Assembly: GCA_043802665.1 (NCBI GenBank)
Contig: JAZDKW010000020.1
Span: 7,036-71,035, forward strand
Direction of reading: 5' to 3'
DNA length: 64,000 nt
From: Patescibacteria group bacterium
GTDB taxonomy: Bacteria; Patescibacteriota; Kazan-3B-28; UBA10110
Below are positions 10,863-50,673 of this stretch, in pieces (the stretch's first letter is position 1; each line of letters begins with the position of its first letter). The notes under the pieces were generated by a model that saw only the letters and a program-made list of their open reading frames with translations, did not search any database and was not told the DNA's origin. A program made the translations under genes and the position numbers.

Positions 10863-11214
10863 AGATGAGAGAGAAGATTCAACACCCCTCTTAAGACAAA
10901 AGGGCAGGCGGTGCCCCGCACAATTCAATATATATCCAGAGAGGATAAATATCATATTCTGGATGAGACTGAATTGTGCTGGGGGAAAGTTATGATACAT
11001 TTTTACAACAATATAACCCCTGGTCAACGCCTGATATTAACAATCTGAAAATCAACAATAAAACCGCTCTCCAAGCCAAAAATATGCTTGACCAGCCGAA
11101 ATAAATAAGTTATACTGCGGGCAAATTCAGTATTAACTGGATGACCTTTGAAAAGGAGGTCGCTCGAGATGCGACAGATCATTTTTCTTCCAAACAAGAA
11201 CAGAGGTGAAAAAG

Positions 11215-11991
11215 ATGACTGTAAATGAGATGGAAGAAGTATTAACAAAGCACATAGAACGCGTTGAGAGACAGAACAGATGCGCTATGAGAATCGCTTG
11301 GATTCTGGGAGCCACATTAACATTATTACTGGCGCTATTGGTATTATTGGGTGTTTATGTTTATTTAGGACCAACCTGGGAAACTAAAACTATTCGTACG
11401 CAGGCTATTGAAATCTTAGATGAGGATGGGAACTCCCGTATTAAACTCCGCATCTTTGAAGGAGAACCCAGTATTGCTCTCTATAACAAGAATGGGAATA
11501 ATCGTGTCTTACTCACTCTTTTTAAAGGGGAGCCGTGTTTTGCGCTCTATGATGCGATTGGAAGCCAGCGTGCCTTGCTCTCTATCCCTGAAGAAACACC
11601 GGGTTTATGGATTTACGACAAGAATGGAAATTGTCAGGTTGCGCTTGCCACCCCTGAAGAGAAACCTGGTTTATGGCTTTATGATGAGAATGGAAATCAT
11701 CGAGCTGGACTCTCCATCTCTGAAGGAGCACCAGGTCTTGCGCTCTATGATGTAGATGGAAGCCAGCGTGCCTTGCTCACCGTCTCTAAAGGAGAACCTG
11801 GTTTATGGCTTTATGACGAGAATGGAAATCATCGAGCTGGGCTAGAGATACTCTCTAAAGGAAAAGGAACACCTGGTTTATGGCTCTGGGACGAGGATGG
11901 AAATCATCGAGCTGGGCTAGAGATCGCGGAAGGAACACCAGGTTTATGGCTCTGGGACCAATATGGCCATTCTACCTTTAAAACTCCTTAG
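11215..11991 (+). CDS. membrane-anchored protein made of ~8 tandem ~20-aa repeats of the form G(E/T)PGLWLYDxNGNxRAxL (YD-repeat-like)
   Basis: The ORF may start at GTG 11206 or ATG 11215; an AGAGGTGA SD-like sequence lies upstream. It has an N-terminal cytoplasmic segment plus one TM helix. The tandem 60-63-bp repeats are visible at DNA level from 11440 to 11960. Confidence 0.7.
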   Translation: MTVNEMEEVLTKHIERVERQNRCAMRIAWILGATLTLLLALLVLLGVYVYLGPTWETKTIRTQAIEILDEDGNSRIKLRIFEGEPSIALYNKNGNNRVLLTLFKGEPCFALYDAIGSQRALLSIPEETPGLWIYDKNGNCQVALATPEEKPGLWLYDENGNHRAGLSISEGAPGLALYDVDGSQRALLTVSKGEPGLWLYDENGNHRAGLEILSKGKGTPGLWLWDEDGNHRAGLEIAEGTPGLWLWDQYGHSTFKTP

Positions 11992-26377: not shown

Positions 26378-26422
26378 TTATCGGGGTTTTAATAATGGGG
26401 ATCGTCCCCTTCTACCTTCCCA

Positions 26423-26462
26423 ACGGCTCTCCGATGAGTATCGGAGAGCCGTTGCTTTTTTG
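26423..26462 (+). terminator. rho-independent terminator
   Basis: AACGGCTCTCCGATgagtATCGGAGAGCCGTT followed by a T-run. Confidence 0.7.
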
Positions 26463-26474: not shown

Positions 26475-26501
26475 AAAAACCCGCATTTCAGCGGGGTTTT
26501 T
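26475..26501. terminator. bidirectional terminator hairpin
   Basis: AAAAAACCCGCatttcaGCGGGGTTTTT. Confidence 0.65.
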
Positions 26502-26610
26502 AAAATAAAAGAAAACATTCGGTGGGCACCTAATTGGGTGGATAACAGACCCACCCTGCTACTTCCTGACATGGTCGTCTGGAATGGTGCGTACTTCAGG
26601 GATCCCAGGT

Positions 26611-26793
26611 TCACAACAAGCTCCACCAGCCAAAGGTGGCTCCTCCCAGTATGGCACCTCCGCCAAAGATAAAAGCTATTCCGATGAGAGTGGGACCCAA
26701 CTCTTTTTTGGTGGTGCCGATTACCATGAGGATAAGACCAAGAATAAGAACAGCGGCTCCGAAGATTTGAGCGGATGACTCGAAGAATGACAT
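26611..26793 (-). CDS. small glycine-zipper membrane protein (60 aa)
   Basis: Perfect SD AAGGAGGAA 4 nt before the ATG; two hydrophobic helices with GxxxG runs. Confidence 0.6.
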   Translation of the reverse strand: MSFFESSAQIFGAAVLILGLILMVIGTTKKELGPTLIGIAFIFGGGAILGGATFGWWSLL

Positions 26794-26820
26794 TTCTTCC
26801 TCCTTAAGGTGCGACTACTT

Positions 26821-26881
26821 TTTCTCTATCTCCGTCCTAAAGACAGAAACAGGGAGAAAGGCCAATGCGAGAAGCATTGGC
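26821..26881. repeat. structured ~62-nt repeat, copy 1: TTTCTCTATCTC-CGTCCTAAAGACAGAAA-CAGGGAGAAAG-GCCAATGC(gagaa)GCATTGGC
   Basis: Read directly; 4 copies in 1.6 kb. Confidence 0.7.
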
Positions 26882-26905
26882 GGATGAATTTCTGACACAG
26901 GATGA

Positions 26906-27145
26906 TTAGGACTTTATGAATGCATCGTATTCCGGGCGACCGAATAGCTCCACTGTGAGAAAGTTAAAGCCGCCTTTGCAGCTAGGGCAAAGATTTAATT
27001 TAGCTAGCTCCTTATAGAGAACGATCGCTGCTTTTCGTTCCGGACTACCGTTAGGAGCATTCTTGGCGGCACAAAGGATTTTTTTGCCTTTCTCTTGAAG
27101 CTCCGATTTGTGTCCGCAGGTGCACTTATTATTTTTTCCTACCAT
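26906..27145 (-). CDS. small zinc-ribbon-like protein (79 aa; CxC...CxxC)
   Basis: SD GGAGGAGAAACC immediately before the ATG. Confidence 0.55.
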   Translation of the reverse strand: MVGKNNKCTCGHKSELQEKGKKILCAAKNAPNGSPERKAAIVLYKELAKLNLCPSCKGGFNFLTVELFGRPEYDAFIKS

Positions 27146-27385
27146 GGTTTCTCCTCCAGAGAAAACAACAAGGGTTACAAGCCCTTTTGCTGCCGGATCA
27201 CTCGCAGAGATGCGCCTTCAGTAAAGACAATAAGATATATATGGGTGTCAATCCATATACAGAGATTATCGCTTTACCTACTCAACCACATCTGTGTGCC
27301 TGATTAGATCCGATGATACTGGACAAGCAATCCAGTCCCTTTCCAGGGGGTTCTATTTGAATGACTTTATTTTCAAGATACGATT

Positions 27386-27449
27386 CTTTCTCTCTATCTC
27401 AATCGGGTTGATTGGGACAGGGAGAAAGGCCAATGCTTCTTGCATTGGC
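27386..27449. repeat. structured repeat, copy 2: CTTTCTCTCTATCTC-AATCGGGTTGATTGGGA-CAGGGAGAAAG-GCCAATGC(ttctt)GCATTGGC
   Basis: Read directly. Confidence 0.7.
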
Positions 27450-27680
27450 CAGGAGAACTTATGCATGGTCTCTCCTGGTAACCATATAACGGCGCACCGT
27501 CTCACGCCCCATCTATATACGTACAACGTTATTCCGGCTTCTCCATATGGGTTTTTGTTTATTTGTACCCACATGGTGGAACTAACTGTATATACGATGG
27601 ACTTACGATGCACCGTAAGAAGAAACTGGGCCAAATAAAGCAGGGGTTTGCCTGCTTGGATTTTTGATGTGAAAGTACAA

Positions 27681-27744
27681 TCTTTCTCTCTATCTCAATC
27701 GGGTTGATTGGGACAGGGAGAAAGGCCAATGCAAGGCATTGGCG
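27681..27744. repeat. structured repeat, copy 3 (same variant as copy 2; loop AAG)
   Basis: Read directly. Confidence 0.7.
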
Positions 27745-27764
27745 CTGGGAAGAGCAATTAAATT

Positions 27765-28190
27765 TCAAAATGTAGTGTGCTTCGCTTCCGCAATGAGCTC
27801 ATTCTCGCCCGTCATGTCCAACAGCTTGTCAAAGCTATCGGGGAACCCTGTCTGGAATTTAATCCAGTCTTGGGGCATCAGATACACATGACGCCCATCG
27901 TGAGGGTACATCCCGCATTGACCATTGGACATTAGGATAAGGGCTTTTCTAGTGACATCTTCTTCAATCACCTGGATCATGCCTCGGCAATCGAGACAAC
28001 CCTCTCCAGAATCCACGATGACGTAGTCGAGGGATTCGGAAGAAAACACATTTACGCATTCCTCGTGGACTTGAAATCCGAGAAAATTACCTTTGCTACC
28101 AGCGACAGGGCCCCTTATATTGGCAGTGAGTTTTTCCCATTTACCTTCAGGGAATGTCATGGATGCCATGGATGTCATAACTGATTTCAT
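27765..28190 (-). CDS. hypothetical protein (141 aa)
   Basis: SD GGGAGGAGAAAA before the ATG; no recognisable motif. Confidence 0.55.
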   Translation of the reverse strand: MKSVMTSMASMTFPEGKWEKLTANIRGPVAGSKGNFLGFQVHEECVNVFSSESLDYVIVDSGEGCLDCRGMIQVIEEDVTRKALILMSNGQCGMYPHDGRHVYLMPQDWIKFQTGFPDSFDKLLDMTGENELIAEAKHTTF

Positions 28191-28345
28191 TTTTCTCCTC
28201 CCAGAGAAGCTCAGTTTATTTACTGGTCATGAGCTTGACCAGGCCAGCTTATATCCATAAACAGTAATTTAGATGGATATACATGCAAGGCATGTATATC
28301 AGACGTAAGCTGTTATGGAGTGGCATAAATTTTTAAGGAACTATT

Positions 28346-28410
28346 CCTTTCTCTCTATCTCCGTCCTAAAGACAGAAACAGGGAGAAAGGCCAATGCAGA
28401 GTACATTGGC
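28346..28410. repeat. structured repeat, copy 4 (same variant as copy 1; hairpin GCCAATG(cagagta)CATTGGC)
   Basis: Read directly. Confidence 0.7.
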
Positions 28411-28728
28411 ACCGACCAGTTGAGGAGGAGAATTTTTTCAGGGATAGGCATCTCCTCGTAACCATTTTTTGTTAGCTACAGCTAACCCCTTCGCTGTCTA
28501 CATGGTGATACATGGGTATGAGTGATATACTCACTCTGCCCATATAGCCCATGGCTGATCAGCATAATAATAATGACTCTTTTGCTTAAGGTACTTGTGA
28601 TGGATTAGTGGCTCTCAGAGCTAACTTTGTCCATCAACGTTAAGCCGAGTATACGCCCGACTACGATTTTTGTCAATTTGAATTATCTCTTAGTTGGCTT
28701 TTGCTCGTCTGACATTGGTAATTATATC

Positions 28729-28784
28729 TGTCAAAATTGTCAAAGAGTATTGACAGATTAAACAAATAAGAGTAAAATGTAACT
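28729..28784 (+). promoter_or_regulatory. sigma70-type promoter for the TrmB-like gene: TTGACA (28750-28755), 17-bp spacer, TAAAAT (28773-28778). The -35 is overlapped by the palindrome TGTCAA-agagta-TTGACA, with a third TGTCAA half-site upstream. The ATG lies 6 nt after the -10, so the mRNA is leaderless.
   Basis: Read directly. Confidence 0.6.
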
Positions 28785-29573
28785 ATGAAACTACCATCTC
28801 AAGATAGCGTATTGCAAGCTTCTTTAGAAGCCATCGGCTTGTCGGAAAAAGAAGCTAAAATCTACATCACCTTAGTTAAATTCGGCACCCTTACCCTATC
28901 TATGCTGGGCAGACACGCTGGGTTAAAACGCGGGATTGTTTATGATTTAACTAAAAAATTAATGACGAAAGGAATTGTTTCTTTATTCGAAAAAGACAAA
29001 AAATTAGTGGCTCAAGCTCAACCCCCGGAAAACTTACGAGCATTAGCAGAGGCGCAGGAAATGGAAACCAAATTAGCTAAGAAGCAACTAGAACAAAATA
29101 TTGTTGAACTAAAGAATATTTATGAGAACATCAACCTTAAACCTAATATTTCTTATTTGATTGGCGACACATCAATAGATTTTTTACACAATGATATATT
29201 ATCGGATAAGAAAACAGTATTCTTAGTTAGATCACTATACGATAGGATTATGAGGGAAGATATTCTATACTACATTAGTAAAAGGGCTAAATTAGGTATC
29301 TTAACAGAAATTACAGCTCCAAAAGATCCCAATAGAACTGACAAAGAACTATTGGAAAAACATCCACCATCGCTAGATAAGAAAAGATTGCTGATACGCA
29401 AATGGTTGCCACGAGGAGAATATGACTCACCTATCGCAATCCAAGTTTACGGTAATAAACTTTCTTTTATCAACTACCGCGAGAATAGAAAAATGGGGTT
29501 ATTAATCGAAGACAAAGACATTGCCGAATCAATTAGGCAAATTCTGCAAGCTCTGCGAAAGAGACTGGATTGA
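28785..29573 (+). CDS. TrmB-family transcriptional regulator
   Basis: 262 aa; N-terminal winged HTH (LGLSEKEAKIYITLVKFGTLTLSML), coiled linker, C-terminal effector-type domain. Confidence 0.65.
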   Translation: MKLPSQDSVLQASLEAIGLSEKEAKIYITLVKFGTLTLSMLGRHAGLKRGIVYDLTKKLMTKGIVSLFEKDKKLVAQAQPPENLRALAEAQEMETKLAKKQLEQNIVELKNIYENINLKPNISYLIGDTSIDFLHNDILSDKKTVFLVRSLYDRIMREDILYYISKRAKLGILTEITAPKDPNRTDKELLEKHPPSLDKKRLLIRKWLPRGEYDSPIAIQVYGNKLSFINYRENRKMGLLIEDKDIAESIRQILQALRKRLD

Positions 29574-31219: not shown

Positions 31220-31666
31220 TTATTCGGAGAGGATGGTTATTTTTAGTTCGCCTTGGAGTTCGGGAGAAAAAACTACTGGCACAGTGTGTTCACCCAATTT
31301 CTTGAGAGGTTTATTTATCCTAACGGCGGCCGGATCAATCCGGCTTTTAGTTTTATCCGAGAGTTCAGCGGCAATGTGATCGGCCCCTACTCCCGCAAAT
31401 AGTCGGCCCAATTTAGAGGCCTTGCGCTGAAAAACAAGATGGATCTTGGGCAATTCGCGAATGATATCCTCCCATTTTTTATGGAGCGTTTCGAATTCCT
31501 TTTTCCGCTTAGCTTCCCGCTTTTTGAGTCGTTCCAGCCTTTCTGGAGTTGCTATCTCGGCTAAACCCCTAAGAACCAGAAAATTCCGAGCGTAACCATC
31601 GGCTACCTCCTTGATATCACCATCGTGGCCCAATCCTGCCACTTCTTTAGTTAGAATAACTTTCAT
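31220..31666 (-). CDS. rplI: 50S ribosomal protein L9
   Basis: 148 aa; [30 protein letters not shown]. Confidence 0.9.
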
Positions 31667-31783
31667 CCCGTTAGAAGCAGGAAACCTTTAGGTTCCCGAC
31701 GTTTAATAATAAGATATCTGATAATAAATGGGTTATTGAGTAATTCATAGAATTTGATACTGAATAGAGCACTTCTAACGGGA
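31667..31783. repeat. stop-to-start intergenic element 1: left end CCCGTTAGAAGCAGG, right end CACTTCTAACGGGA
   Basis: Exactly fills the gap between the ctpA stop (31788) and the rplI ATG (31666); terminal inverted repeat of 11-12 bp. Confidence 0.7.
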
Positions 31784-31787
31784 TGGA

Positions 31788-33002
31788 TCATTTTATTAGT
31801 TTCTTTAGTTCTTCTATAGCCTTATCTAACTGCACATCTGTTGCCTCGTCCTGACCCTCTTCTATTAATATATCAGGCTTAATCCCCCCCTGGCTAATGG
31901 ATTTACCGGAAGGCGTATACCAATGTGCTACTGTAATCCGCAGAGCGGAACCATCTGGCATCTCTTCAATCTCTTGGACACTTCCCTTGCCATAGGTGTT
32001 GGTCCCCACGATTGTCGCTCTCCCATTGTCCTTAAGAGCACCTGCCAAGATCTCTGCCGCCGAGGCACTACCATCATTCACCAAGACAACCACAGGGATA
32101 TCTGATAATTTCCCGGAACCATCAGCATAAAAAGGTGTCACTCGGCCATCTTTGAATCGCTCTTCCACAATCATGCCATCAAACATAAATTCATTGACGA
32201 CCTTAACCCCAACATCCAAAAACCCGCCGGGATTATTGCGCAAATCTAATACTATCCCGGTAACGCCGCCCTTGACTATAGTGCTAACAACATTGCGAAA
32301 CAATTTTTCTGTATCACTGCTAAATTTAGTGATTTCAATAACGGCCAACTGGTCCTCAAAAGAAACTAAAGTAACACTGGGTATTTTAATTAGACCACGA
32401 GTCACCACAAACTCTAACGGATTGGCTTCCCCTTCCCGGCTGATAATCAAAGTAACTTGGCTACCGCGAGCCCCCTGAATGAGCTGTACCGCCCCATCTA
32501 AACCCAAACCGATTGTGATGCGGCCATCAATGGCCATAATCGTATCGCGCGGCTTAATGCCGGCCTTCTGCGCTGGCGAACCTTCCATAGGAGTAATGAC
32601 TACTAACTGGCCATCAATATCATCCATTTCGACACCGATACCTTCATAAATGCCGTTTAAATTAGTAAAGAACTCTTTGCTTTCGGCTGGTGTGCTAAAC
32701 GAAGTGTAATGATCCCCTAAAGAATCTACCGCCCCCTTAATACTGCCATATAACAAATTGAGCTGATCTATATCACCGTAATATTTTTCTTGCAATAAAC
32801 TAATCACGTCCTCATACAAGGAAAAACTGGGGGTGACTTCACGATAGTTGCTGATCTCTTGTTGCCAAGCCGCTAAAAGATTCTGGTTGGTAATGCGATG
32901 ATAATATCCCCGAGTTACTCCCAACCAATAGCCCATCAACAAGGACACTAAAATGCTTAGGATACAAAGCGCGTTACGAGTTTTGTCATCAATTTTAAAC
33001 AT
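31788..33002 (-). CDS. ctpA: C-terminal processing peptidase (S41) with PDZ domain
   Basis: 404 aa; PDZ segment plus the S41 catalytic region. Confidence 0.8.
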   Translation of the reverse strand: MFKIDDKTRNALCILSILVSLLMGYWLGVTRGYYHRITNQNLLAAWQQEISNYREVTPSFSLYEDVISLLQEKYYGDIDQLNLLYGSIKGAVDSLGDHYTSFSTPAESKEFFTNLNGIYEGIGVEMDDIDGQLVVITPMEGSPAQKAGIKPRDTIMAIDGRITIGLGLDGAVQLIQGARGSQVTLIISREGEANPLEFVVTRGLIKIPSVTLVSFEDQLAVIEITKFSSDTEKLFRNVVSTIVKGGVTGIVLDLRNNPGGFLDVGVKVVNEFMFDGMIVEERFKDGRVTPFYADGSGKLSDIPVVVLVNDGSASAAEILAGALKDNGRATIVGTNTYGKGSVQEIEEMPDGSALRITVAHWYTPSGKSISQGGIKPDILIEEGQDEATDVQLDKAIEELKKLIK

Positions 33003-33006: not shown

Positions 33007-34167
33007 TTAACTTATCAGATAAGCCAGGGGATTACGCAATACCCCTTCATACCACACCTCAAAATGTAGGTGCGGCCCGGTGGTGAGCCAGCCTGCACCA
33101 GGAGTGCCGGGAGTACCGCCGCTATATCCAATTACTTGGCCTAAACTCACTCTGGCTCCATTGCCTACTGCGAACCCGGATAAATGCATATAAACTGTAG
33201 CTAAGCCATTGTCATGATTAATCACTAAGTAACTCAGGCCTTTGGCCCCACCGTTCACTATTTTAGTTACCGTTCCACTAGCAGGTGCAGTTATCGGCGT
33301 ACCTTGGGGACAAGCAATATCCATGCCCGTATGTTGCAGGCCAAATCGTTTAAAGTAATCAGGATCGCGAAAAGTAGCAGTGATAGTTCGATACGGAATC
33401 GGCCACATTAAGGTCAAAGGCCCCACCGGATGAGTGGAAGGGGTCTGCCGTATTAAAGTGGCAACGGCATCCTCGACGGCCACTGCCTCTGCTTTGGATT
33501 CGGCTAATTTTCCCTGATATTCCGTTTCGCTTAATTTAAGATCCTTCATAATCTTATTTTTGGCGTCAACTTGAATACCCAAACTTTGTTCTTCTATTGT
33601 TCTTTGTTGACGGATATCTAACAAACGTTCGTTTTTATCTTCCAGAAAAGCTTTTTTGGAAGATAGTGATTCTTGGATTCCCTTCAAAGCCTGCAGATTA
33701 GTAGTGATTTTGTTTTGGATATAGTTAATATATTCCATCCGAATCCAGAAATCGGCTATGCTATTAGAACCCAAAACAATCTCGATTAAATTATTTTGGC
33801 TATATATATAAGAAGCGCGGATGGCCTGTTTAAGATCTATGCGCCGAGCCAAAGCCTGTTCCTCCAAATCTACTAAATCGTGATTGATAGTATTTTTTTC
33901 TATACCGATAGTAACAACCTCAGCATCAATAGCTTCTAAAGCCAATTGAGCCGTAGTGATTTGTTGGTCAAGCAACTTAACCTGATTGTCCAAAGTAAGC
34001 GTTTGTTTGCGAATATTGGATAATGTTTCTTCCTGCTGAGTAATTTTTTTTTGGATATCTTTTAGCTCTTGCTGTTTATCGGACAATAAATCGGCCCGGG
34101 CTGGGCTGTTTGTCAATATTAATCCAGCTATTAATGCTATGTTGAGTCCAAAAAGTATTTTTTTCAT
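33007..34167 (-). CDS. envC: M23/LytM peptidase with N-terminal coiled coil (EnvC-like FtsEX partner)
   Basis: 386 aa; signal peptide, long coiled coil, C-terminal M23 motifs (HTGMDIA ... GPHLHFEV). Confidence 0.8.
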   Translation of the reverse strand: MKKILFGLNIALIAGLILTNSPARADLLSDKQQELKDIQKKITQQEETLSNIRKQTLTLDNQVKLLDQQITTAQLALEAIDAEVVTIGIEKNTINHDLVDLEEQALARRIDLKQAIRASYIYSQNNLIEIVLGSNSIADFWIRMEYINYIQNKITTNLQALKGIQESLSSKKAFLEDKNERLLDIRQQRTIEEQSLGIQVDAKNKIMKDLKLSETEYQGKLAESKAEAVAVEDAVATLIRQTPSTHPVGPLTLMWPIPYRTITATFRDPDYFKRFGLQHTGMDIACPQGTPITAPASGTVTKIVNGGAKGLSYLVINHDNGLATVYMHLSGFAVGNGARVSLGQVIGYSGGTPGTPGAGWLTTGPHLHFEVWYEGVLRNPLAYLIS

Positions 34168-34287
34168 CCCGTTAGAAGCAGGAAACGCCTTCGTTTCCGT
34201 CGTTTAAAGATAAAGTGGTTAATTGGTTAGTCATGGCACAAGGCATAGCTTTTATTAAGTTGGAATCCTTTGCTGCTTCTAACGGGA
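34168..34287. repeat. stop-to-start intergenic element 2: CCCGTTAGAAGCAGG ... GCTTCTAACGGGA
   Basis: Fills the gap between the ftsX stop (34289) and the envC ATG (34167). Confidence 0.7.
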
Positions 34288-34288
34288 C

Positions 34289-35206
34289 TCATATTCTTAG
34301 ATATCGCCGGGTAGATAAGTAACTGCTGATGGCTCCTACTGATACTCCGAAAAACAACTGAACAACAAAAAGCTTCACTGCGAAAACATAATCAAAAATA
34401 TTGTGAGCACCGACCAAGGTCTGTAATGACCAGTACTGTTCGCCCAATAATAATATTATTCCTTGATACACACCCAGGGTAAGCAAAAAAGCTAACACCG
34501 CTCCCAATAATCCGTAAATTACTCCTTCTAAGATGAGCGGCCACCGAATATACCAATCGGTAGCTCCAACCAGCTTCATAATTTCTATCTCCTCTTTATG
34601 GGTAAAGATAGTGATACGGATAGTATTAAAAATAATCAGCAGGGCGATAATAATCAAAATCAAACTTAGTGCTAAATTGCCCCAAGCCAAAAACCAATTG
34701 AACTTGCGCAATTTATCTACAACGACCTGATTATTTTCTAAACTGGTTTTGGTGACAATGTGATTGGTATCTTGATCCTTCACCCGCTGCACCACCGTTT
34801 CCAAGAGGTTCGCATCGGTTACTTCAATCTGTAAACTCACAGGGAAAAAGCTACTGTCATCCCCGACAATATCTAAGAGAGCCTGATCGTGCTGACTACT
34901 GGTAGTATATCTCTCCAAAGCTTGTTCGCGTGAAATAAATTGGACATCTTTAACTCCTTTTAGATATTCAATCTTGTCCTGGAAAGCTAAAACATCGCTA
35001 TCCGGAACATAATCTTCAAAGAATACAGCCACATTAATCTGTTCGTTAAGGGCCTGAATAGCCTTATTAACTCCCAAATTAACCGTCAGGAAAATTCCCA
35101 CTAAAAGCAAAACCTGCATCATAATAAAGATCGCCACGAGACTTAACCAACCGTTGCGCCAAAAACCATGCCAAGCCGTTTTTATAATGCGTAAAAATAT
35201 TTGCAT
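34289..35206 (-). CDS. ftsX: cell division ABC permease-like protein FtsX
   Basis: 305 aa; 4 TM helices with large periplasmic loop; downstream of ftsE. Confidence 0.85.
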   Translation of the reverse strand: MQIFLRIIKTAWHGFWRNGWLSLVAIFIMMQVLLLVGIFLTVNLGVNKAIQALNEQINVAVFFEDYVPDSDVLAFQDKIEYLKGVKDVQFISREQALERYTTSSQHDQALLDIVGDDSSFFPVSLQIEVTDANLLETVVQRVKDQDTNHIVTKTSLENNQVVVDKLRKFNWFLAWGNLALSLILIIIALLIIFNTIRITIFTHKEEIEIMKLVGATDWYIRWPLILEGVIYGLLGAVLAFLLTLGVYQGIILLLGEQYWSLQTLVGAHNIFDYVFAVKLFVVQLFFGVSVGAISSYLSTRRYLRI

Positions 35207-35946: not shown

Positions 35947-37045
35947 TTACTTCAACCTATCTTTAAGATTTAAGGTAACACTATTAATTATTTCGTCTAA
36001 ATTACCCTCTTCCAACACCTCTTTAACCCGGGTGGTAACAAAACCACTACGATGATCTTTAATTTGATGGTATGGGTGCAGTACATAAGAACGAATTTGT
36101 TGGCCAAAATCGCCTGACTCCCCTGCGCCTTTCAGGCCCCGCTCTTCATTCTCGCGTTCTTGTTCCTTCAACAAATAGACACGGTGCTTTAGGACACGCA
36201 TAGCGATTTCCTTGTTTTGCGCTTGTGATCGTTCGCCCTGTGCTGATGCGGATAATTTAGTGGGTAAATGAGTAATGCGCACAGCCGAATCAGTGGTATT
36301 GACTGACTGACCACCGTGTCCGGAAGAACGGAAAACATCAATGCGCAGATCTTTAGCTGGCAGTTCGGCTTCGACGATCTCCCCTAAATCCGGGATAACT
36401 TCTATCAAAGCAAATGAGGTCTGCCGCAAATTCTGGGCGTTAAATGGCGACAACCGAATCAGCCGATGGACACCTTTCTCCGCCTTTAGCAGGCCGTAAG
36501 CTAAATCACCTTCTATTTTGATGGTAGCGCTTTTAATACCCGCTTCCCCACCGGCGGTTTTTTCAATTAACGTAGTGCGCCACCCTCTCCGAGCCGCATA
36601 TTTTGTATACATTCTGAGGAGCATCTCTGTCCAATCGGCGGCATCTACTCCTCCTGTCCCGCTATGTAAAAAGAGGTACGCATCGCGCCGGTCGTAGGGA
36701 CCGTTCAGTACCGTCTGCCGCTCCAATTCATCTAATCTCTTTTGTACTTTATCCAGCAGAACCACTGCCGCTTCATCAGTACTGGTAAAATCCTCATCTT
36801 TCATTACAGCGGATAGACCCCCCAGTTGGCTGTCTAAATCACTGATTTCATCAATCAGTTTTTTATTCCGCTCAAATTCAATAGTTAGCTCTTTGGCTTT
36901 CGCTGGGTCTTGCCAAAAAGCTGGTTCGCTCATTTGTTCAGCAATCGATTTGTTTTTTATAGATAGACCCGCCGGGTCAAAGATACCTCCGCAATCTATC
37001 CAACTGATCCACTGCCTCTTCCGCTGACAATTTTAATTCCTTCAT
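35947..37045 (-). CDS. prfB: peptide chain release factor 2, with programmed +1 frameshift
   Basis: ORF1 (ATG 37045) encodes MKELKLSAEEAVDQLDRLRRYL and ends at UGA 36979-36977. Its context GGAGG UAU CUU UGA C is the canonical RF2 frameshift site. The +1 frame continues into the annotated 328-aa ORF, which carries the GGQ motif (SGHGGQS). Confidence 0.85.
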
Positions 37046-37161
37046 CCCGTTAGAAGCAGGGAGCCCAGGGCTCCCGACTGGTTAACAATATAGTATCTGA
37101 TAATAAATTAATAATTAAATAATCCATAGGTTTTATACGTAATGATGTGTTTCTAACGGGA
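37046..37161. repeat. stop-to-start intergenic element 3: CCCGTTAGAAGCAGGG ... GTTTCTAACGGGA
   Basis: Fills the gap between the infC stop (37166) and the prfB ATG (37045). Confidence 0.7.
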
Positions 37162-37165
37162 TAAA

Positions 37166-37678
37166 TTATTTTGGATTTAATACTGTAAAAAGTTGTCGAT
37201 TTTGGATTGCAGGTGTTTTTTCTAAACTATAAGTTTGTTGTAACATCCCCAAAAATTTGTCTAGGACCCGTTGACCTAATTCTGGGTGAGTGATTTGACG
37301 CCCTTTGAAACGAACCACCACCTTTACCTTATGCTGTTTGGCGAGAAACTGATCGACTTTTTTAGCTTTAACTATCAGATCATGATCGTCAATCCCGAGG
37401 CTAAGCCGCATTTCTTTTTCTTCACGGTTTTTTTGTCGCTTACGTTGTTGTGCTTGAGATTTCTCCTGTTCGTATTGATATTTACCGTAGTCAATAATTT
37501 TACAAACTGGAGGCCGTTGGTTAGCTACAACTTCGACAAGATCCAAGCCAACTTCTTTAGCTTGTTGTAGTGCTTGAGAAGTGGCAATTATTCCTACCCG
37601 TTGTCCATTCTCGTCGATTAATAGGACTTGAGGTAGGCGGATTTGTTCATTGATGCGCAAACGTGATTGTGAGGTCAT
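37166..37678 (-). CDS. infC: translation initiation factor IF-3
   Basis: 170 aa; IF3 N- and C-domains (VRLIDENGQ..., KVKVVVRFKGRQITHPELG). Confidence 0.9.
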   Translation of the reverse strand: MTSQSRLRINEQIRLPQVLLIDENGQRVGIIATSQALQQAKEVGLDLVEVVANQRPPVCKIIDYGKYQYEQEKSQAQQRKRQKNREEKEMRLSLGIDDHDLIVKAKKVDQFLAKQHKVKVVVRFKGRQITHPELGQRVLDKFLGMLQQTYSLEKTPAIQNRQLFTVLNPK

Positions 37679-45225: not shown

Positions 45226-45285
45226 ATTATCATTATACGATAAGGGTAAAGGCATAAGTAATGCTATTTTTGTGCGTGTTCTATT

Positions 45286-46938: not shown

Positions 46939-47202
46939 AACGGCTAGGGGAGAGCCATCAATCTCCCCAAAATCTTTCTTTGCGGATTCTGGCATTTCGG
47001 GTCGAATCTGCAGGGGTTCGACAATGATCGGACGAAACTTTCCCTAACGGGAAATGATTAACAATATCTCTGAGCCCTCAGCCTCTGCGTAGAGATACGG
47101 ATTGGCGCTATAGGGCAAGTGGAATCGGTCGGACTGCCACTTTAAATAAAGAATCCGAAAATGGGAGAGCTCTGTTGCTGGACACGCATTACCCAGCAAA
47201 CC

Positions 47203-47265
47203 ATCTCTCCCCCTCTTCTGAGTTTGTTACTTCGATAAGATAAAGTAGCAACTTCAGATGAGGGC
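47203..47265 (+). repeat. cassette hairpin element H0 (degenerate): CCCTCTTCTGAGTTTGTTAC ... AACTTCAGATGAGGG
   Basis: Inverted repeat read directly; followed by the conserved CGAATCTTGAAAATT motif. Confidence 0.55.
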
Positions 47266-47394
47266 TTGCTCTCAAAACGAATCTTGAAAATTAAATTCAA
47301 TCCAACTCTTGTAGAGAGCAATTTGGGTATAAATTATTTTCTGAAATGTTCGTATCCAAGTTGCTCTCTAAGAAGAGCAAAGGAGGCATGTCAA

Positions 47395-48588
47395 ATGCCT
47401 AAATTAATTAAGGTCGCCATTGGTGGCCCACCGAAATCCGGCACGACATGCTTTCTTGCCGGGTTATGCGAAAACCTTCCGAGGTTTTCGCGCTATCTCT
47501 TCCGGGCTTGCCCGGACGGAGAGGGAACTTGGACTTACAGGTCCGAGGCCTCTGCCAAGTATCGTCGCAAGGGGCAGTTCGCCCCGGGGCTGGTTGACTG
47601 GTACTGCCAGTCGCTAGCCAAGTGCGTGATGGCCCCGATCGTCCTCGTGGACATCGGTGGCCGTTGCTCTGATGAGAATTCCCGAATCCTTCGCGAAGGC
47701 GGAGTACAATTCGGGATAATCCTTTCCCCATCTCTGGAAGCAATTCCAGAATGGGAGAGATTTTTCCGCTCTTGCGGAGTGGAAGTAATCGCTCGAGTAA
47801 TCAGCGATTACAACGGCACTGATGACATTACTATTGATGCCGACCCGATGGTCGTGCATCATCTTGATCGGGAGGTAAGCGCAGAGGAATTGGCAACTCG
47901 GCCAACCATTCAGAAGGTGGCTGAAATTATTTTGGGGTTGATCGCCCCGGAGGAAACAGAAATGAACATTCTTTCTTCATTGATTACTCCCGACGGGGTC
48001 ATCACGGTTGCCGCTCTTGCGGCCGCCCTCGGTAAGACTGCAGTTGAAAGGGCTTTGCCGAATGGCAAAGTCATCCCCCAGATCGTCTGGGAGGGTGCGG
48101 ACTTGGTCCGCATCGCCGAGCTCCTGCACAACCGCTCGGCAGAAATGCCGGAAGTTGTGAGGATCGACGGCCCCGCTCCGGCGTGGCTCGTTGCGTCGCT
48201 CACTCACGAGTGCCATCCGCGGATGGTGGCATTGAATAGTGCTGACGGATTCGTCAATGTTGGGTGCCGCCGGCCTTCCGGCGGCGGCGAGGGGATCAAC
48301 TTCAAGGTTGAGACCCGTCCCGACGACTGGAAAGTCGTCACATTCGAGCTGGACCCCTCGGTCCCGCTCTCTCCGGCCGATCTTGACCGGATTGCCCCAC
48401 CTGACCTGGGCACCCTTGACTCGAAAGTAGTCCTTTCGGGTCGGGGGCCAAACTGGCTCTTTGCCAGTTTGGCCTTGGCATACCACGGCCGCGCCGGGGC
48501 CGTGGCCCGCTTCCAGCCGGGGACTGGTAGCACGGTCGTCTGGACCCACACTCAGAGTGTGGTACTCGGGGATAATATCCCTGAGTAA
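47395..48588 (+). CDS. P-loop-containing protein of unknown function (cassette gene A)
   Basis: SD AAAGGAGG 7 nt before ATG 47395; the ORF track extends to 47266 but no SD lies there. The N-terminus has a Walker-A-like KVAIGGPPKSGTT. The C-terminal half carries a duplicated motif GPAPAWLVASLTHECH / GRGPNWLFASLALAYHG. GC is ~60%, against ~40% for the window. Confidence 0.6.
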   Translation: MPKLIKVAIGGPPKSGTTCFLAGLCENLPRFSRYLFRACPDGEGTWTYRSEASAKYRRKGQFAPGLVDWYCQSLAKCVMAPIVLVDIGGRCSDENSRILREGGVQFGIILSPSLEAIPEWERFFRSCGVEVIARVISDYNGTDDITIDADPMVVHHLDREVSAEELATRPTIQKVAEIILGLIAPEETEMNILSSLITPDGVITVAALAAALGKTAVERALPNGKVIPQIVWEGADLVRIAELLHNRSAEMPEVVRIDGPAPAWLVASLTHECHPRMVALNSADGFVNVGCRRPSGGGEGINFKVETRPDDWKVVTFELDPSVPLSPADLDRIAPPDLGTLDSKVVLSGRGPNWLFASLALAYHGRAGAVARFQPGTGSTVVWTHTQSVVLGDNIPE

Positions 48589-48627
48589 GAATTGCACATT
48601 TTCAGAGGGAGAGCTTCGTCTCTCCCT

Positions 48628-48799
48628 CCTTCATCCGAGTTCACCATTATTCATTGTCCGTCATTCCGGCCTACGAGCCGGAATCTAGATCCTGAATCGT
48701 ATTAATTATACGATCCTGGACAAAGCCAGGATGACGAAGTAAGGAATACTTCATCAGTTCAGGATGACGCATAAGTAAATGATGAATTCAGATGAGGGA
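48628..48799 (+). repeat. cassette hairpin element H1: CCTTCATCCGAGTTCACC ... AATGATGAATTCAGATGAGGGA, with a ~130-bp MITE nested in its loop
   Basis: Arms read directly. The insert at 48646-48777 has terminal inverted repeats CGTCATTCCGG/CAGGATGACG. The element is preceded by the hairpin GAGGGAGAGcttcgtCTCTCCCTC. Confidence 0.65.
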
Positions 48800-48956
48800 G
48801 AAATCTCTTAACACCGAATCTTGAAAATTGAAAATTATTTCTCTTGTGGAGAGTCACATCCTCACAATCTATTTTGTGATGAGCTGACTCTCCATCAGGA
48901 GAGAAAAATATAGCCGGAATGCCCTGTAAACCGGTCAAGGGGCAAGGAGGCCAAAA

Positions 48957-49766
48957 ATGGCCAAAAAAATATTACGTCTGAATGAAGAGCAGTTTAATCT
49001 GCTCAGGAACGCTGTGCGAGAGAATCAGATTAAACGGGATAAGTTGAAGAGTCGGATGGTAGAAATACTATCCGAACTCAACTCTCTTTGCCGAGGCTTT
49101 ATTTTCTCGGATGGTACTTCTGTTGTGTCAGTTAATTTCTATGCTTTCTGGTCTTTTTCGACCGGGAGATGGAATTGCGAGGATCTGGGGTATAAGTCGG
49201 GTTTTCCGACTATCCCCCAGCGCGACAAGCGTTGGCCGGAGTTGACTGTTGCCGTGCCGGAACTGTCGGCATTAATGACGGAGTATGAGTTAAACAAGAA
49301 GGCAATGGGGGAAATTGCACATCTCACCATCGCGCCTCAGTACAGGAAAGTGCGAGGGTACTATGAAGTTGACTCAACAGAGTGGGATCGTCTTGTAGAT
49401 AGCCCCAACACCTCTTCTGGATTTTTCTGGGAAACGGAAGAAAGCGGGGGAGGCATGACAAACACCGGCTATAGCCAGGTTGTTTGTCTTCTGAGCGGTA
49501 ATCCCGCAATTGCATATTGTCTTGGACATCACGCAAATGATGTGCATGCGCGGTTCCGGTTCAGGTCCAAGTTCAGGTGGATTGAAGTTCGTGTTAAACG
49601 CTATCGGGAATCAGTTGAGATATCTGGTTGCGAAATGCCGAGTGGGGAAGAAATCTTTTATGCCACATGCATCGAAGAAGTTCCAGAATTTCTTCTGGAC
49701 GCCACCAAAGCGGCGATGGCCAAGGCAGATGATTATCACTGCCGGAAACCATATTTCATTTTTTGA
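48957..49766 (+). CDS. hypothetical protein (cassette gene B, 269 aa)
   Basis: SD AAGGAGG before the ATG; no recognisable motif. Confidence 0.6.
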   Translation: MAKKILRLNEEQFNLLRNAVRENQIKRDKLKSRMVEILSELNSLCRGFIFSDGTSVVSVNFYAFWSFSTGRWNCEDLGYKSGFPTIPQRDKRWPELTVAVPELSALMTEYELNKKAMGEIAHLTIAPQYRKVRGYYEVDSTEWDRLVDSPNTSSGFFWETEESGGGMTNTGYSQVVCLLSGNPAIAYCLGHHANDVHARFRFRSKFRWIEVRVKRYRESVEISGCEMPSGEEIFYATCIEEVPEFLLDATKAAMAKADDYHCRKPYFIF

Positions 49767-49795
49767 CCACCTTGTTCTTTCTTGGGTAATAAGAC

Positions 49796-49860
49796 GGGGG
49801 CCTTACGGCCCCCCTTTCATCTGAGTTTACCATCTGTAAATGATGAATTCAGATGAGGGA
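49796..49860 (+). repeat. terminator-like hairpin GGGGGCCTTACGGCCCCC followed by cassette hairpin H2 (CCTTTCATCTGAGTTTACC ... TGAATTCAGATGAGGGA)
   Basis: Read directly. Confidence 0.65.
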
Positions 49861-49913
49861 ATCATCTCTCAAATTTTCTCGGCAAAATGCCGAAATGAAC
49901 CTTGAGGTGTAAC

Positions 49914-50171
49914 ATGGCTGTTGGTAAGTGGACCACTACTGTTATCGGAGTATATTGGGACAAAATGATCGACGGTATAGCTGAGGAATTTGTCTATAGG
50001 CTATACAAAGAGTTATCTGCCGAAGAGATCAATATACTTGTAGATGAGGCGTTCAAAAATATGTCTCTTTTGCCACCACAACTTGCAGATTGTATAAAAG
50101 CAACGGTTGTTGAAATGAAGAACCGAAAACCGATAATTGCTTATCCTCCTACCACGGGAGAATCTGGATAG
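49914..50171 (+). CDS. hypothetical small protein (cassette gene C, ~85 aa)
   Basis: SD GAGGTG before ATG 49914; the ORF track starts at 49902. Confidence 0.5.
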   Translation: MAVGKWTTTVIGVYWDKMIDGIAEEFVYRLYKELSAEEINILVDEAFKNMSLLPPQLADCIKATVVEMKNRKPIIAYPPTTGESG

Positions 50172-50177
50172 ATTCTC

Positions 50178-50245
50178 CCCCTTCATCCGAGTTCAGCATT
50201 CGGCAAGCTCATGACAGAGCACGAATAATGAATTCAGATGAGGGG
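50178..50245 (+). repeat. cassette hairpin H3: CCCTTCATCCGAGTTCAGCAT-(27 nt)-AATGAATTCAGATGAGGGG
   Basis: Read directly. Confidence 0.65.
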
Positions 50246-50287
50246 CAACTCTCAATTCGAAATTTGAAAATACAAGGAGGCACGAAA

Positions 50288-50572
50288 ATGCCGAAAAAGC
50301 CATGGTTCATTAAGATTTTATGCTACGGGATGATTATCGGGAGCATAGCATTGATTGTTGTTATGCTCTCGAGTGGTTTCTATTCTGAACTATTCATTTC
50401 CCCAGCGGAGTCACGCTGGTGGTGGGTGCTAATTAACCCAACACCAGAAGCTATTGATCACGGGACACTGTGGATGTGGGTGCTTGCAGTGTTCCCAGTT
50501 GTGACGGCGATACTTGGGGTTCTGGGTTTGGGTCGTTGCTCCCTCGGGGCATCATCCCCCTTGGTCTCTTAG
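50288..50572 (+). CDS. small two-TM membrane protein (cassette gene D, ~94 aa)
   Basis: SD AAGGAGG before ATG 50288; the upstream part of the ORF-track version just translates hairpin H3. Confidence 0.55.
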   Translation: MPKKPWFIKILCYGMIIGSIALIVVMLSSGFYSELFISPAESRWWWVLINPTPEAIDHGTLWMWVLAVFPVVTAILGVLGLGRCSLGASSPLVS

Positions 50573-50607
50573 CTCTCTGCTATCCTCTTTGTTCTTTTGT
50601 GGATACA

Positions 50608-50673
50608 CGGGGGCCTTACGGCCCCCCCTTCATCCGAGTTCAGCATCTACAAATGATGAATTCAGATGAGGGA
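50608..50673 (+). repeat. terminator-like hairpin CGGGGGCCTTACGGCCCCC followed by cassette hairpin H4 (CCTTCATCCGAGTTCAGCAT-tacaaa-TGATGAATTCAGATGAGGGA)
   Basis: Read directly. Confidence 0.65.

What the first reader, a model, noticed from the sequence alone, without database searches (positions are those of the whole stretch)
26500..28450. Second small-gene island with four copies of a ~62-nt structured repeat whose stem is conserved while the loop varies
**Repeats seen in sequence.** Four elements lie at 26821, 27386, 27681 and 28346. Each has the architecture TTTCTCTCTATCTC-[core A: CGTCCTAAAGACAGAAA or core B: AATCGGGTTGATTGGGA]-CAGGGAGAAAG-GCCAATGC-loop-GCATTGGC. The outer TTTCTC/GAGAAA pair and the 7-8-bp GCCAATGC/GCATTGGC stem are invariant. 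The terminal loop is different in every copy (gagaa, ttctt, aag, cagagta).

**Genes.** The repeats alternate with three small minus-strand genes (60-aa glycine-zipper membrane protein, 79-aa zinc ribbon, 141-aa unknown). Each gene carries a near-perfect SD, unlike the host genes. The region is GC-elevated and bounded by a bidirectional terminator on one side and a TrmB regulator on the other.

**Inference.** This is a second, independent cassette-type array using a different boundary element. Alternatively the repeats form a family of cis-acting RNA elements (processing or stability sites) in a polycistronic small-protein operon.
Basis: partly seen in the sequence, partly recalled or inferred. 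Interest (0 to 1): 0.8.

Follow-up and report, generated by a model that had tools for sequence, protein, structure and literature searches.

The report
Double-hairpin repeats between small foreign genes
Four copies of a 63-65-base element made of two back-to-back hairpins separate the units of a small, probably foreign, unusually structured gene island in an uncultured Patescibacteria genome; they most likely act as RNA "punctuation marks" between genes, but no relatives exist in public data and the function is untested.

Summary
Four co-oriented copies (26818-26881, 27386-27449, 27682-27743, 28347-28410) occur only here in the 64-kb window, against 0 expected by chance. None was found in the genome, metagenome, viral, phage or plasmid collections, and there is no Rfam match.

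Each copy is two abutting hairpins:
- hp1 has an 8-bp stem and a loop that has drifted. One loop is an inversion of another.
- hp2 has 17-19 bp, a fixed base, and one of two unrelated but equally self-complementary tips.

The flanks are not homologous, so this is not a simple tandem duplication. The copies lie at the 3' end of each unit of a minus-strand island. That island is about 60% non-coding, extremely structured, and carries three orphan genes with strong Shine-Dalgarno sites in a host whose genes lack them.

The 47-50.7 kb island has an unrelated repeat with the same hairpin-hairpin architecture after each gene.

Best reading (confidence about 0.4): cis-acting RNA elements between cistrons that protect or process transcript ends.

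A cassette-junction or recombination role is not excluded. However, attC core sites are absent, no recombinase was found in the window, and the divergent neighbour is a TrmBL2-like regulator. A peptide-coding reading is unlikely.

Comparative tests were impossible because the lineage is barely sampled.

The parts
28347..28410 (-). F1 copy c4, core A. In the sense direction, hp1 is 28410-28390 and hp2 is 28389-28347.
   Evidence: sense-strand fold -36.4 kcal/mol, z -6.85; 88.3 bits
27682..27743 (-). F1 copy c3, core B. It starts 21 nt after the stop codon of the 141-aa gene.
   Evidence: -32.9 kcal/mol, z -8.86; 86.0 bits
27386..27449 (-). F1 copy c2, core B. It is identical to c3 over 52 nt except for the hp1 loop, which is an inversion of a c1-like loop.
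   Evidence: D1, I1; -34.4 kcal/mol, z -8.76; 87.8 bits
26818..26881 (-). F1 copy c1, core A. It starts 24 nt after the stop codon of the 79-aa gene and ends 24 nt before the ATG of the 60-aa gene.
   Evidence: -31.3 kcal/mol, z -6.12; 87.0 bits
28425..28465 (-). Extension of c4: the conserved ATGGTTACGAGGAGA plus a hairpin GAGGAGA...TCTCCTC. The pyrimidine arm can alternatively pair with the SD of the 141-aa gene.
27450..27485 (-). Extension of c2: the conserved ATGGTTACCAGGAGA plus a hairpin CAGGAGA...TCTCCTG. The closing pair is C-G where c4 has G-C.
27765..28190 (-). 141-aa orphan ORF with RBS TTCTCTGGGAGGAGAAAAATG.
   Evidence: only a self hit in 5.8 and 1.8 billion proteins; no family; SD
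26906..27145 (-). 79-aa CxC...CxxC ORF with RBS GGAGGAGAAACCATG. No homologue was found, and not even a self hit in the protein collection.
26611..26793 (-). 60-aa glycine-rich ORF predicted to span the membrane twice, with SD AAGGAGG.
   Evidence: (sub-threshold TrbC/VirB2 match, E 0.017)
28648..28676 (-). Sigma-70-type promoter TTGACA-17-TATACT (11 of 12 matches) reading into the island, divergent from the promoter of the TrmBL2-like gene.
26480..26495 (.). Bidirectional intrinsic terminator that closes the island.
27638..27657 (.). Hairpin AAGCAGG/CCTGCTT located 24 nt after c3. It is terminator-like on the + strand and a weaker candidate on the sense strand; it may act as an internal attenuator.
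28411..28647 (-). Structured non-coding leader. Together with 28191-28346 it gives a fold z-score of -8.0 on the sense strand.
27146..27681 (-). Structured non-coding stretch that carries c2, with a fold z-score of -8.9 on the sense strand. The hexamer GTATAT/ATATAC is 27-fold enriched in the island spacers.
28785..29573 (+). Divergently transcribed TrmBL2-like DNA-binding protein: winged helix, coiled coil and a PLD-like C-terminal domain without an HKD motif.
   Evidence: pLDDT 84; Foldseek E 1.7e-14 to 5bqt
47165..50672 (+). Second island with five copies of an unrelated repeat (F2) of the same hp1+hp2 zero-linker architecture, at about 47165-47264, 48606-48798, 49796-49859, 50160-50244 and 50609-50672. 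Each follows a gene.
   Evidence: (16.9 bits)

Best explanation
**What it is.** The element is a cis-acting RNA module on the sense (minus) strand of a small, horizontally acquired, heavily structured operon. Each copy is two abutting hairpins.
- hp1 reads GCCAAUGC-loop-GCAUUGGC.
- hp2 has the base CUUUCUC.CUGU / AUAG.GAGAAAG with a replaceable tip.

**Where it sits.** One copy lies at the 3' end of every unit: the leader RNA, the 141-aa gene, a gene-less 230-nt unit, and the 79-aa gene.

**Proposed mechanism (inferred, not shown).** RNA polymerase reads through, because hp1 has no proper U-tract. The transcript is then cut in or next to hp2, for example by an RNase III-type enzyme acting on the 17-19-bp duplex. 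After the cut, hp1 caps the 3' end of the upstream segment against exonucleases, and the remaining structure caps the 5' end of the downstream segment. This would uncouple the stability and translation of the units.

**Side effect.** The near-identical 63-65-nt blocks are also substrates for homologous recombination. That could add, delete or swap the units they flank.

**Shown versus inferred.**
- Shown: the copies, their fold potential, their position and orientation, the operon signals, the foreign character of the genes, and a second family with the same architecture.
- Inferred: transcription through the copies, cleavage, stabilisation and recombination.
For: **Real and non-random.**
- The 19-mer occurs four times against 0 expected.
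- The covariance model scores 86-88 bits on these four copies only.

**Fold.**
- Every copy folds into the same two hairpins, with z-scores from -4.4 to -8.9.
- 97% of cells are paired in register, against 37-49% when the partners are slid.
- The hp2 tip is replaced by an unrelated 17-nt sequence that keeps the helix. Pairs 40-52 and 41-51 change on both sides.
- The hp1 loop drifts and even flips while its stem does not change (I1).

**Position.**
- All copies are co-oriented with the genes.
- They start 21 and 24 nt after two stop codons, between a strong promoter and a canonical terminator.
- hp1 is not followed by a U-tract, whereas canonical terminators in the same region are. The copies are therefore probably transcribed through.

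**Context.**
- The non-coding 60% of the island is extremely structured, and more so on the sense strand: -169.4 against -160.0 kcal/mol (z -8.0 against -6.2), and -229.1 against -217.9 kcal/mol (z -8.9 against -5.5).

**Independent parallel.**
- Five copies of a sequence-unrelated repeat at 47-50.7 kb have the same hp1|hp2 zero-linker architecture directly after each gene.
- hp1 there has three different covarying stems, and one copy passes the terminator scan.
- The hp2 base there has two G-U pairs that would be A.C mismatches on the other strand.

**Precedents (literature).**
- Intercistronic stem-loops stabilise or process polycistronic mRNA.
- T7 RNase III signals are one example (PMC3867540).
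- The plastid intercistronic expression element is another (PMC2230500).
Against: - There are no expression data, so transcription and cleavage are entirely inferred.
- The strand preference of the element itself is ambiguous. Core-A copies fold better on the sense strand and core-B copies on the antisense strand. Each strand has one position that is a wobble pair on that strand and a mismatch on the other.
- Covariation is thin. There are only two sequence types and two double changes, and the shuffle control is only 19 of 500.
- Invariance of stems with variable loops is also expected for DNA-level hairpins.
- Four near-identical copies are not needed for a purely structural role, which suggests duplication or mobility.
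- No relatives exist in any collection, so conservation cannot be tested.
- An RNase III gene was not looked for and may not be in the window.
Confidence: 0.4

Rival explanations
1. The element is a DNA-level cassette junction. The copies would be the recombination sites that flank independently acquired gene cassettes, either homologous-recombination substrates like phage PeSLs or sites for an unidentified recombinase. Their RNA structure would then be secondary.
For: - The flanked genes are orphans with strong SDs in a host whose genes lack SDs. The mean anti-SD match is 5.5 against 3.4 nt.
- GC3 is above the host range in this island and very heterogeneous in the sister island, from 0.36 to 0.64.
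- The flanks of the copies are unrelated.
- The order of types is nested: A-[gene]-B-[230 nt]-B-[gene]-A. This is what insertion by recombination at a like copy would give, and not what tandem duplication would give.
- One interval between copies has no gene, like an empty cassette.
- The hp1 loop inversion is a DNA-level event (I1).
- PeSL repeats flanking ORFans mediate exactly this kind of shuffling in T4-type phages (PMC2839356, PMC4122927).
Against: - No recombinase, integrase or transposase was found among about 40 ORFs tested in the 64 kb.
- The divergent neighbour is a TrmBL2-like regulator.
- No RYYYAAC...GTTRRRY pair is present on either strand.
- No promoter component is present as there is in PeSLs.
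- No second genome is available to show presence or absence of units.
- The 150-240-nt structured spacers inside each unit are not explained.
Confidence: 0.25
2. The element is a selfish palindromic DNA element of the MITE, REP or PATE type that has multiplied locally and has no function for the host.
For: - The copies are near-identical and have unrelated flanks.
- The hp2 base looks like imperfect terminal inverted repeats: CTTTCTCCCTGT against CTTTCTCTCTAT.
- The sister family tolerates a 130-nt insertion of other palindromes in its hp2 tip.
- The window holds several other palindromic repeat families.
Against: - There are only four copies, all within 1.6 kb and all in one orientation. None occurs elsewhere in the 64 kb or in any collection.
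- The flanks show no target-site duplication.
- The element as a whole has no terminal inverted repeats, because hp1 and hp2 are separate palindromes.
- There is no conserved GTAG-type tetranucleotide as in REPs.
- No transposase or RAYT was found in the window.
Confidence: 0.15
3. The element encodes a short peptide module (..ALAFLPV[SVFRT/PINPI]EIE[R/K]K) that is translated in at least c2 and c4.
For: - All four copies are open in the same frame on the sense strand.
- c2 is preceded by AGGAGAGACCATG, nearly the RBS of the 79-aa gene.
- c4 yields a 36-aa ORF with a hydrophobic stretch and a charged tail.
Against: - The 2-nt shorter loop of c3 puts its upstream part, including the in-stem ATG, in another frame.
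- c1 has no RBS.
- In c4 the ATG abuts the SD with no spacing.
- The two cores give unrelated pentapeptides while conserving base pairing.
- The + strand is open as well, so an open frame is not discriminating here.
- ORF ends differ between copies, giving 20 to 37 aa.
Confidence: 0.05
4. The element is a processive antiterminator or attenuator RNA, like the two-hairpin put RNAs of phage HK022, that modifies RNA polymerase as it is transcribed.
For: - The size and shape fit: about 65 nt, two stem-loops with no linker.
- c4 lies about 230 nt downstream of the promoter.
- c3 lies 24 nt upstream of a terminator-like hairpin.
- The put architecture is cited from my own knowledge of the literature and was not tested.
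Against: - Four copies in 2 kb are not needed for a persistent modification.
- c1 is followed directly by an RBS.
- There is no sequence relation to any curated RNA family.
- Nothing here tests an interaction with polymerase.
Confidence: 0.07

Closest known systems
PeSL regulatory cassettes of T4-type phages (promoter-early + stem-loop; PMC2839356, PMC4122927)
   Same: - Both are short conserved composite repeats containing a stem-loop.
- Both lie between small orphan genes in a variable region, co-oriented with those genes.
- Both have flanks that are otherwise unrelated.
- Both could serve as homology for modular gain and loss of the flanked genes.
   Different: - No sigma-70 promoter is part of the element here.
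- The element has two hairpins, not one.
- hp1 has no U-tract or poly-G/poly-C terminator character.
- The host is a bacterial chromosome, not a phage.
- Recombination products were not observed.
Intercistronic RNA processing and stability hairpins (T7 RNase III signals, PMC3867540; plastid IEE, PMC2230500; REP/BIME 3' stabilisers, from own knowledge)
   Same: - All are structured elements between cistrons of one transcript.
- Structure rather than tip sequence is conserved.
- Their position just after stop codons suits 3'-end protection and cleavage.
   Different: - Those elements are not near-identical repeats of a two-hairpin unit.
- Cleavage and stabilisation are not shown here.
- REPs are dispersed in hundreds of copies and are tied to RAYT transposases.
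Integron attC sites and cassette arrays
   Same: - Both involve co-oriented structured repeats after each small, mostly orphan, promoter-less gene.
- Both have a conserved stem base and a variable tip.
- Both show homogeneous repeats within one chromosomal array.
- Both have a divergently transcribed gene at the promoter-proximal end.
   Different: - There are no RYYYAAC/GTTRRRY core sites.
- The element has two hairpins.
- No IntI is present, and the divergent gene is a TrmBL2-like regulator.
- 150-240-nt structured spacers lie inside the units.
The 47-50.7 kb repeat family of the same window (F2)
   Same: - It has the same architecture and orientation: gene, then a short GC-rich hp1, then immediately a long hp2 with a conserved base and a variable tip, starting CUUUC.
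- Its genes also have strong SDs.
- The RBS hairpin TTCYCTGGGAGGRGAAA is shared.
   Different: - There is no sequence similarity beyond a 16.9-bit model hit.
- hp1 varies there by covariation but is fixed here.
- F2 has a conserved 3' tail (CTCTCAA..CGAAnnTTGAAAAT).
- F2 flanks an AAA-Csx3 gene.

Membership tests
Integron attC site | Core sites R'' (RYYYAAC) and R' (GTTRRRY) forming the base of the hairpin | tested here: not met
   No RYYYAAC...GTTRRRY pair within 45-160 nt on either strand of either island.
Integron attC site | Integron integrase (IntI) next to the array | tested here: not met
   No recombinase domain in about 40 ORFs of the window. The divergent neighbour is TrmBL2-like. The rest of the genome could not be searched.
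Integron attC site | A single imperfect hairpin with extrahelical bases | tested here: not met
   The element is two separate hairpins.
PeSL regulatory cassette | Consensus sigma-70 early promoter within the repeat | tested here: not met
   Only one weak 9-of-12 match overlaps c2. No promoter follows c1, c3 or c4.
PeSL regulatory cassette | Stem-loop that terminates transcription | tested here: inconclusive
   hp1 is stable but its tail CTTTCTCC fails the U-tract criterion. One hp1 of the sister family passes.
PeSL regulatory cassette | Flanks orphan genes in a variable region and recombines to give indels or mini-circles | not testable with these tools
   The genes are orphans, but no second genome or DNA sample is available.
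REP/BIME | Many dispersed copies, a conserved 5' GTAG-type tetranucleotide, and an associated RAYT | tested here: not met
   There are four copies at one locus only. The 5' flanks are not conserved. No HUH transposase was seen in the window.
MITE | Terminal inverted repeats at both ends of the element and a target-site duplication | tested here: not met
   The whole element has no terminal inverted repeats, since hp1 and hp2 are separate palindromes. No duplicated flank is present.
Intrinsic (Rho-independent) terminator | GC-rich hairpin followed by a U-tract | tested here: not met
   None of the four copies is listed on the sense strand, whereas the terminators at 26421-26454 and 26480-26495 are.
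Any curated RNA family (Rfam 15) | Score at or above the family's gathering threshold | tested here: not met
   No match at gathering thresholds. Only chance-level miRNA-model hits appear at E up to 10.
CRISPR or TIGR-type array | Regularly spaced short repeats with short spacers | tested here: not met
   The spacings are 568, 296 and 665 nt, and the intervals contain genes.
RNase III processing signal (T7 type) | Cleavage of an irregular hairpin of about two helical turns between cistrons | not testable with these tools
   hp2 is 17-19 bp with one or two 1x1 internal loops. Cleavage needs an experiment.

The most novel reading that the evidence does not exclude
The two islands are arrays of a previously undescribed gene-cassette platform in Patescibacteria. 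Two-hairpin junction modules, a different sequence family in each array, would mark the boundaries at which foreign, SD-bearing orphan genes are captured, lost and shuffled in a host that otherwise does not use SD sites. This would happen either through an unknown recombinase encoded elsewhere or through recombinase-independent exchange between the modules, giving a functional analogue of integrons or PeSLs.
Probability: 0.15. Interest if true: 0.8.

Novelty: new variant of a known kind. Interest (0 to 1): 0.45.

Why it matters
Patescibacteria have tiny, gene-dense genomes, and almost nothing is known about their RNA-level regulation or how they take up foreign genes.

This window shows a 2-kb island that is 60% non-coding and as structured as known large RNAs. 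It is punctuated by a repeated two-hairpin module. A second island is built the same way from different sequence. Both carry orphan genes whose translation signals differ from the host's.

- If the modules are processing or stability signals, they define a simple and portable way to express foreign genes from one transcript.
- If they are recombination junctions, they would be a new cassette system in a major uncultured lineage.

Either outcome can be tested with transcript-end mapping and strain-resolved metagenomes from the source site.

Tried and rejected
**Searches for further copies.**
- The exact 19-mer gave 0 hits in genome contigs.
- It gave 3 hits in metagenome contigs, all chance matches without the hairpin.
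- A 15-mer gave 55 single chance hits in viral contigs, none with hp1.
- Gapped and degenerate hp2 patterns gave 0 hits in viral contigs.
- The same degenerate pattern gave 7 unrelated single palindromes in genome contigs.
- blastn of the whole island found nothing in phages or plasmids.
- Patterns for the sister family found nothing in viral contigs.

**Comparative genomics.**
- The exact proteins are not in the contig index.
- The nearest TrmB-like relative is 61% identical and lies on a 1.2-kb contig, so no syntenic locus could be fetched.

**Protein function.**
- Pfam, PADLOC, PHROGs, NCBIfam and PDB gave nothing for the three genes.
- The weak phmmer hits P0002 and P0003 look spurious.
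- The AlphaFold model of the 141-aa protein was unusable (pLDDT 34).

**Ideas tested and dropped.**
- Tandem duplication is rejected, because the spacers are not homologous beyond two short RBS-like motifs.
- Internal promoters built on the enriched GTATAT motif are rejected, because no -35 box lies at a proper distance.
- A general genome-wide terminator style is rejected. A sliding fold of the window finds zero-linker double hairpins of this strength essentially only in the two islands.
- TIGR and CRISPR arrays are rejected on spacing.
Full report
**Observation.** The four copies are present as described, all in one orientation.
- In + strand coordinates they are c1 26818-26881, c2 27386-27449, c3 27682-27743 and c4 28347-28410.
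- The invariant 19-mer CAGGGAGAAAGGCCAATGC occurs four times in the window against 0.00 expected from shuffles.
- A covariance model built from the four copies and run over the whole window without filters returns only these four at 86-88 bits on the minus strand. The best unrelated hit scores 16.9 bits.
- Small corrections: c1 carries one substitution in the outer stem, and the last pair of the c4 short stem is a wobble.
- The four loops are related by descent. The c2 loop is the inversion of a c1-like loop (pair I1: 22 nt, 95% complementary), and the c3 loop is a 2-nt deletion.
- The flanks are not homologous.

**Anatomy.**
- On either strand each copy folds into two hairpins that abut without a linker (z -4.4 to -8.9).
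- Read on the minus strand, which is the sense strand of the genes, hp1 comes first: GCCAAUGC-loop-GCAUUGGC.
- hp2 follows: a 7-bp base, a C.A mismatch, 5 more pairs, and then one of two unrelated tips that both continue the helix.
- A pair count gives 97% of cells paired in register against 37-49% when partners are slid. Two pairs changed on both sides between the A and B tips.
- With only two sequence types this covariation is thin (19 of 500 shuffles).
- Energy does not settle the strand for the element itself. A-type copies are more stable on the minus strand and B-type copies on the plus strand.
- c2 and c4 carry a conserved 5' extension: ATGGTTACSAGGAGA plus a hairpin SAGGAGA...TCTCCTS' whose closing pair is C-G in one copy and G-C in the other.
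- In c4 the pyrimidine arm can alternatively pair with the ribosome-binding site of the 141-aa gene, 230 nt downstream.

**Context.**
- The source is a Patescibacteria metagenome-assembled genome. The 141-aa protein matches only NCBI entry V1807_02535 on a 71.7-kb contig.
- The island lies between housekeeping genes: MraZ and the division/cell-wall cluster on one side, glycyl-tRNA synthetase on the other.
- A near-consensus promoter at 28676-28648 reads into the island on the minus strand, and a bidirectional terminator at 26480-26495 closes it.
- In the sense direction the order is: 230-nt leader, c4, 155-nt spacer, 141-aa gene, c3, a terminator-like hairpin (27657-27638), 195-nt spacer, c2, 240-nt spacer, 79-aa gene, c1, 60-aa gene, terminator.
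- A copy therefore ends every unit except the last. c3 and c1 begin 21 and 24 nt after stop codons.
- About 60% of the island is non-coding, and these stretches are extraordinarily structured. On the sense strand they fold at -169.4 kcal/mol (z -8.0) and -229.1 kcal/mol (z -8.9). On the antisense strand they fold at -160.0 (z -6.2) and -217.9 (z -5.5).
- The hexamer GTATAT/ATATAC is 27-fold enriched in the spacers. I could not turn it into promoters.

**The genes.**
- All three are orphans.
- The 141-aa protein has no relative beyond itself in two very large protein libraries.
- The 79-aa protein has no hit at all.
- No family, defence, phage or structure library recognises any of them.
- Their ribosome-binding sites are strong (AGGAG to AAGGAGG), whereas 35 host genes in the window have essentially none (mean longest match 3.4 nt).
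- Their GC3 (0.46-0.53) lies above the host range of 0.30-0.44.
- The island is therefore probably foreign.
- The divergently transcribed neighbour is a complete TrmBL2-like protein: a winged helix, a coiled coil and a PLD-like domain without the catalytic HKD motif (model pLDDT 84; Foldseek E 1.7e-14 to 5bqt). It is a DNA-binding regulator or chromatin protein, not a recombinase.

**A second family with the same design.** The weak model hit at 50607-50672 led to the island at 47-50.7 kb.
- Five copies of an unrelated repeat each follow a gene on the + strand.
- Each consists of a short GC-rich hp1 directly followed by a long hp2 with a conserved base (CCTTCATCYGAGTT / AATTCAGATGAGGG) and a variable tip. 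One tip has a 130-nt insertion.
- hp1 there has three different self-complementary sequences, and one passes the terminator scan.
- The hp2 base has two G-U pairs on the sense strand.
- The genes again have strong ribosome-binding sites and very mixed GC3, from 0.36 to 0.64. The first is an AAA-Csx3 protein.
- Two unrelated sequences with the same order (gene, hp1, hp2), the same zero spacing and the same orientation argue that the architecture itself is what matters.
- A sliding fold of the whole window finds such strong abutting double hairpins essentially only in these two islands.

**Interpretation.**
- I rank first an RNA-level role (confidence 0.4). The copies would be punctuation modules of a read-through transcript. 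hp1 would act as a 3' protective hairpin, and hp2 as a processing site and/or 5' structure for the next unit.
- Intercistronic hairpins of phage T7 (PMC3867540) and plastid operons (PMC2230500) work this way.
- This fits the orientation, the position after stop codons, the lack of a U-tract, the structure-only constraint on tips and loops, the sense-strand bias of the surrounding structure, and the parallel family.
- It remains an inference, because there are no expression data.
- Second (0.25) is a DNA-level cassette-junction role. It is supported by the foreign, orphan nature of the flanked genes, the nested A-B-B-A order of types, the gene-less interval, and the precedent of PeSL repeats that shuffle ORFans in T4-type phages (PMC2839356, PMC4122927).
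- It is weakened by the absence of attC core sites, of any recombinase in the window and of a promoter component.
- The two readings are compatible. PeSLs are regulatory elements that also recombine.
- A selfish palindromic element (0.15), a put-like antiterminator (0.07) and a peptide-coding module (0.05) are less likely, for the reasons given under rival explanations.

**Limits.**
- No copy of either family was found outside this window in any collection.
- The closest relative of the neighbouring gene is 61% identical and lies on a 1.2-kb contig.
- Conservation, copy number in the rest of the genome and cassette polymorphism therefore could not be examined.

**Verdict.** The feature is real and non-random. 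It is not a member of any curated RNA family and it fails the defining tests for attC, REP, MITE, PeSL and canonical terminators. It is best described as a new, lineage-restricted variant of the known class of structured intergenic repeats that punctuate, and may shuffle, small accessory genes. Interest is moderate at 0.45. It would be high if the cassette-platform reading (probability about 0.15) were shown.

Noticed in passing
window 46740-50680: A second island holds five copies of an unrelated repeat with the same hp1+hp2 architecture after each gene. Its first gene is an AAA-Csx3 protein (47395-48588, GC 58% against 43% for the window). The GC3 of its four genes ranges from 0.36 to 0.64.
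   Followed up: partly
whole window (35 host genes against 8 island genes): Host genes essentially lack Shine-Dalgarno sequences, while every gene of the two islands has a 5-7-nt SD. This suggests foreign origin or a separate mode of translation.
   Followed up: partly
window 10395-10520, 31655-31800, 34155-34290, 37035-37180 (sense = minus strand): A third repeat family sits in front of host genes, including ribosomal protein L9. Its layout is CCCGTTAGAAG, then about 100 nt of AT-rich sequence, then a covarying hairpin (GGAAAC/GTTTCC, GGGAGCC/GGCTCCC, GAAAAC/GTTTTC), then TGCTTCTAACGGG directly before the ATG. The 11-nt ends are inverted repeats that bracket the whole intergenic region. There is no Rfam match.
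   Followed up: partly
window 28193-28208, 27149-27165, 46771-46787: A small hairpin presents the SD in its loop just before the start codon: UUCUC-UGGGAG-GAGAA. It is shared by genes of both islands, with a U-A to C-G change in the copy at 46771.
   Followed up: no
window 45626-45864 (minus strand) and 44740-45327: A group I intron (Rfam RF00028, 66 bits) lies next to tRNA-Gly, tRNA-Leu and an HNH endonuclease ORF.
   Followed up: no
window 11457-11966: A 66-nt unit is tandemly repeated seven times inside ORF 11206-11991, giving a 22-aa protein repeat with no Pfam match.
   Followed up: no
window 46341-46412, 47305-47376, 48837-48908, 52745-52816: Very long, near-perfect hairpins fold at -30 to -42 kcal/mol over 72 nt. 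Two of them lie in the 5' untranslated regions of the second island and share CTCTTGTRGAGAG at the base.
   Followed up: no
window 48640-48790 and 46685-46715: Palindromes of the GTCATCCTGAAC...TTCAGGATGAC type occur twice. One sits inside the tip of an F2 hairpin, which looks like a nested insertion of another small palindromic element.
   Followed up: no
window 28690-28780: The divergent promoter region between the island and the TrmBL2-like gene holds four to five TGTCAA/TTGACA half-sites, including the inverted pair TGTCAA-agagta-TTGACA. This may be the regulator's operator.
   Followed up: no
window 27146-28650, non-coding parts: The hexamer ATATAC/GTATAT is 27-fold enriched (7 of the window's 25 occurrences lie in 888 nt), mostly inside hairpin stems or loops. 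Its role is unknown.
   Followed up: partly
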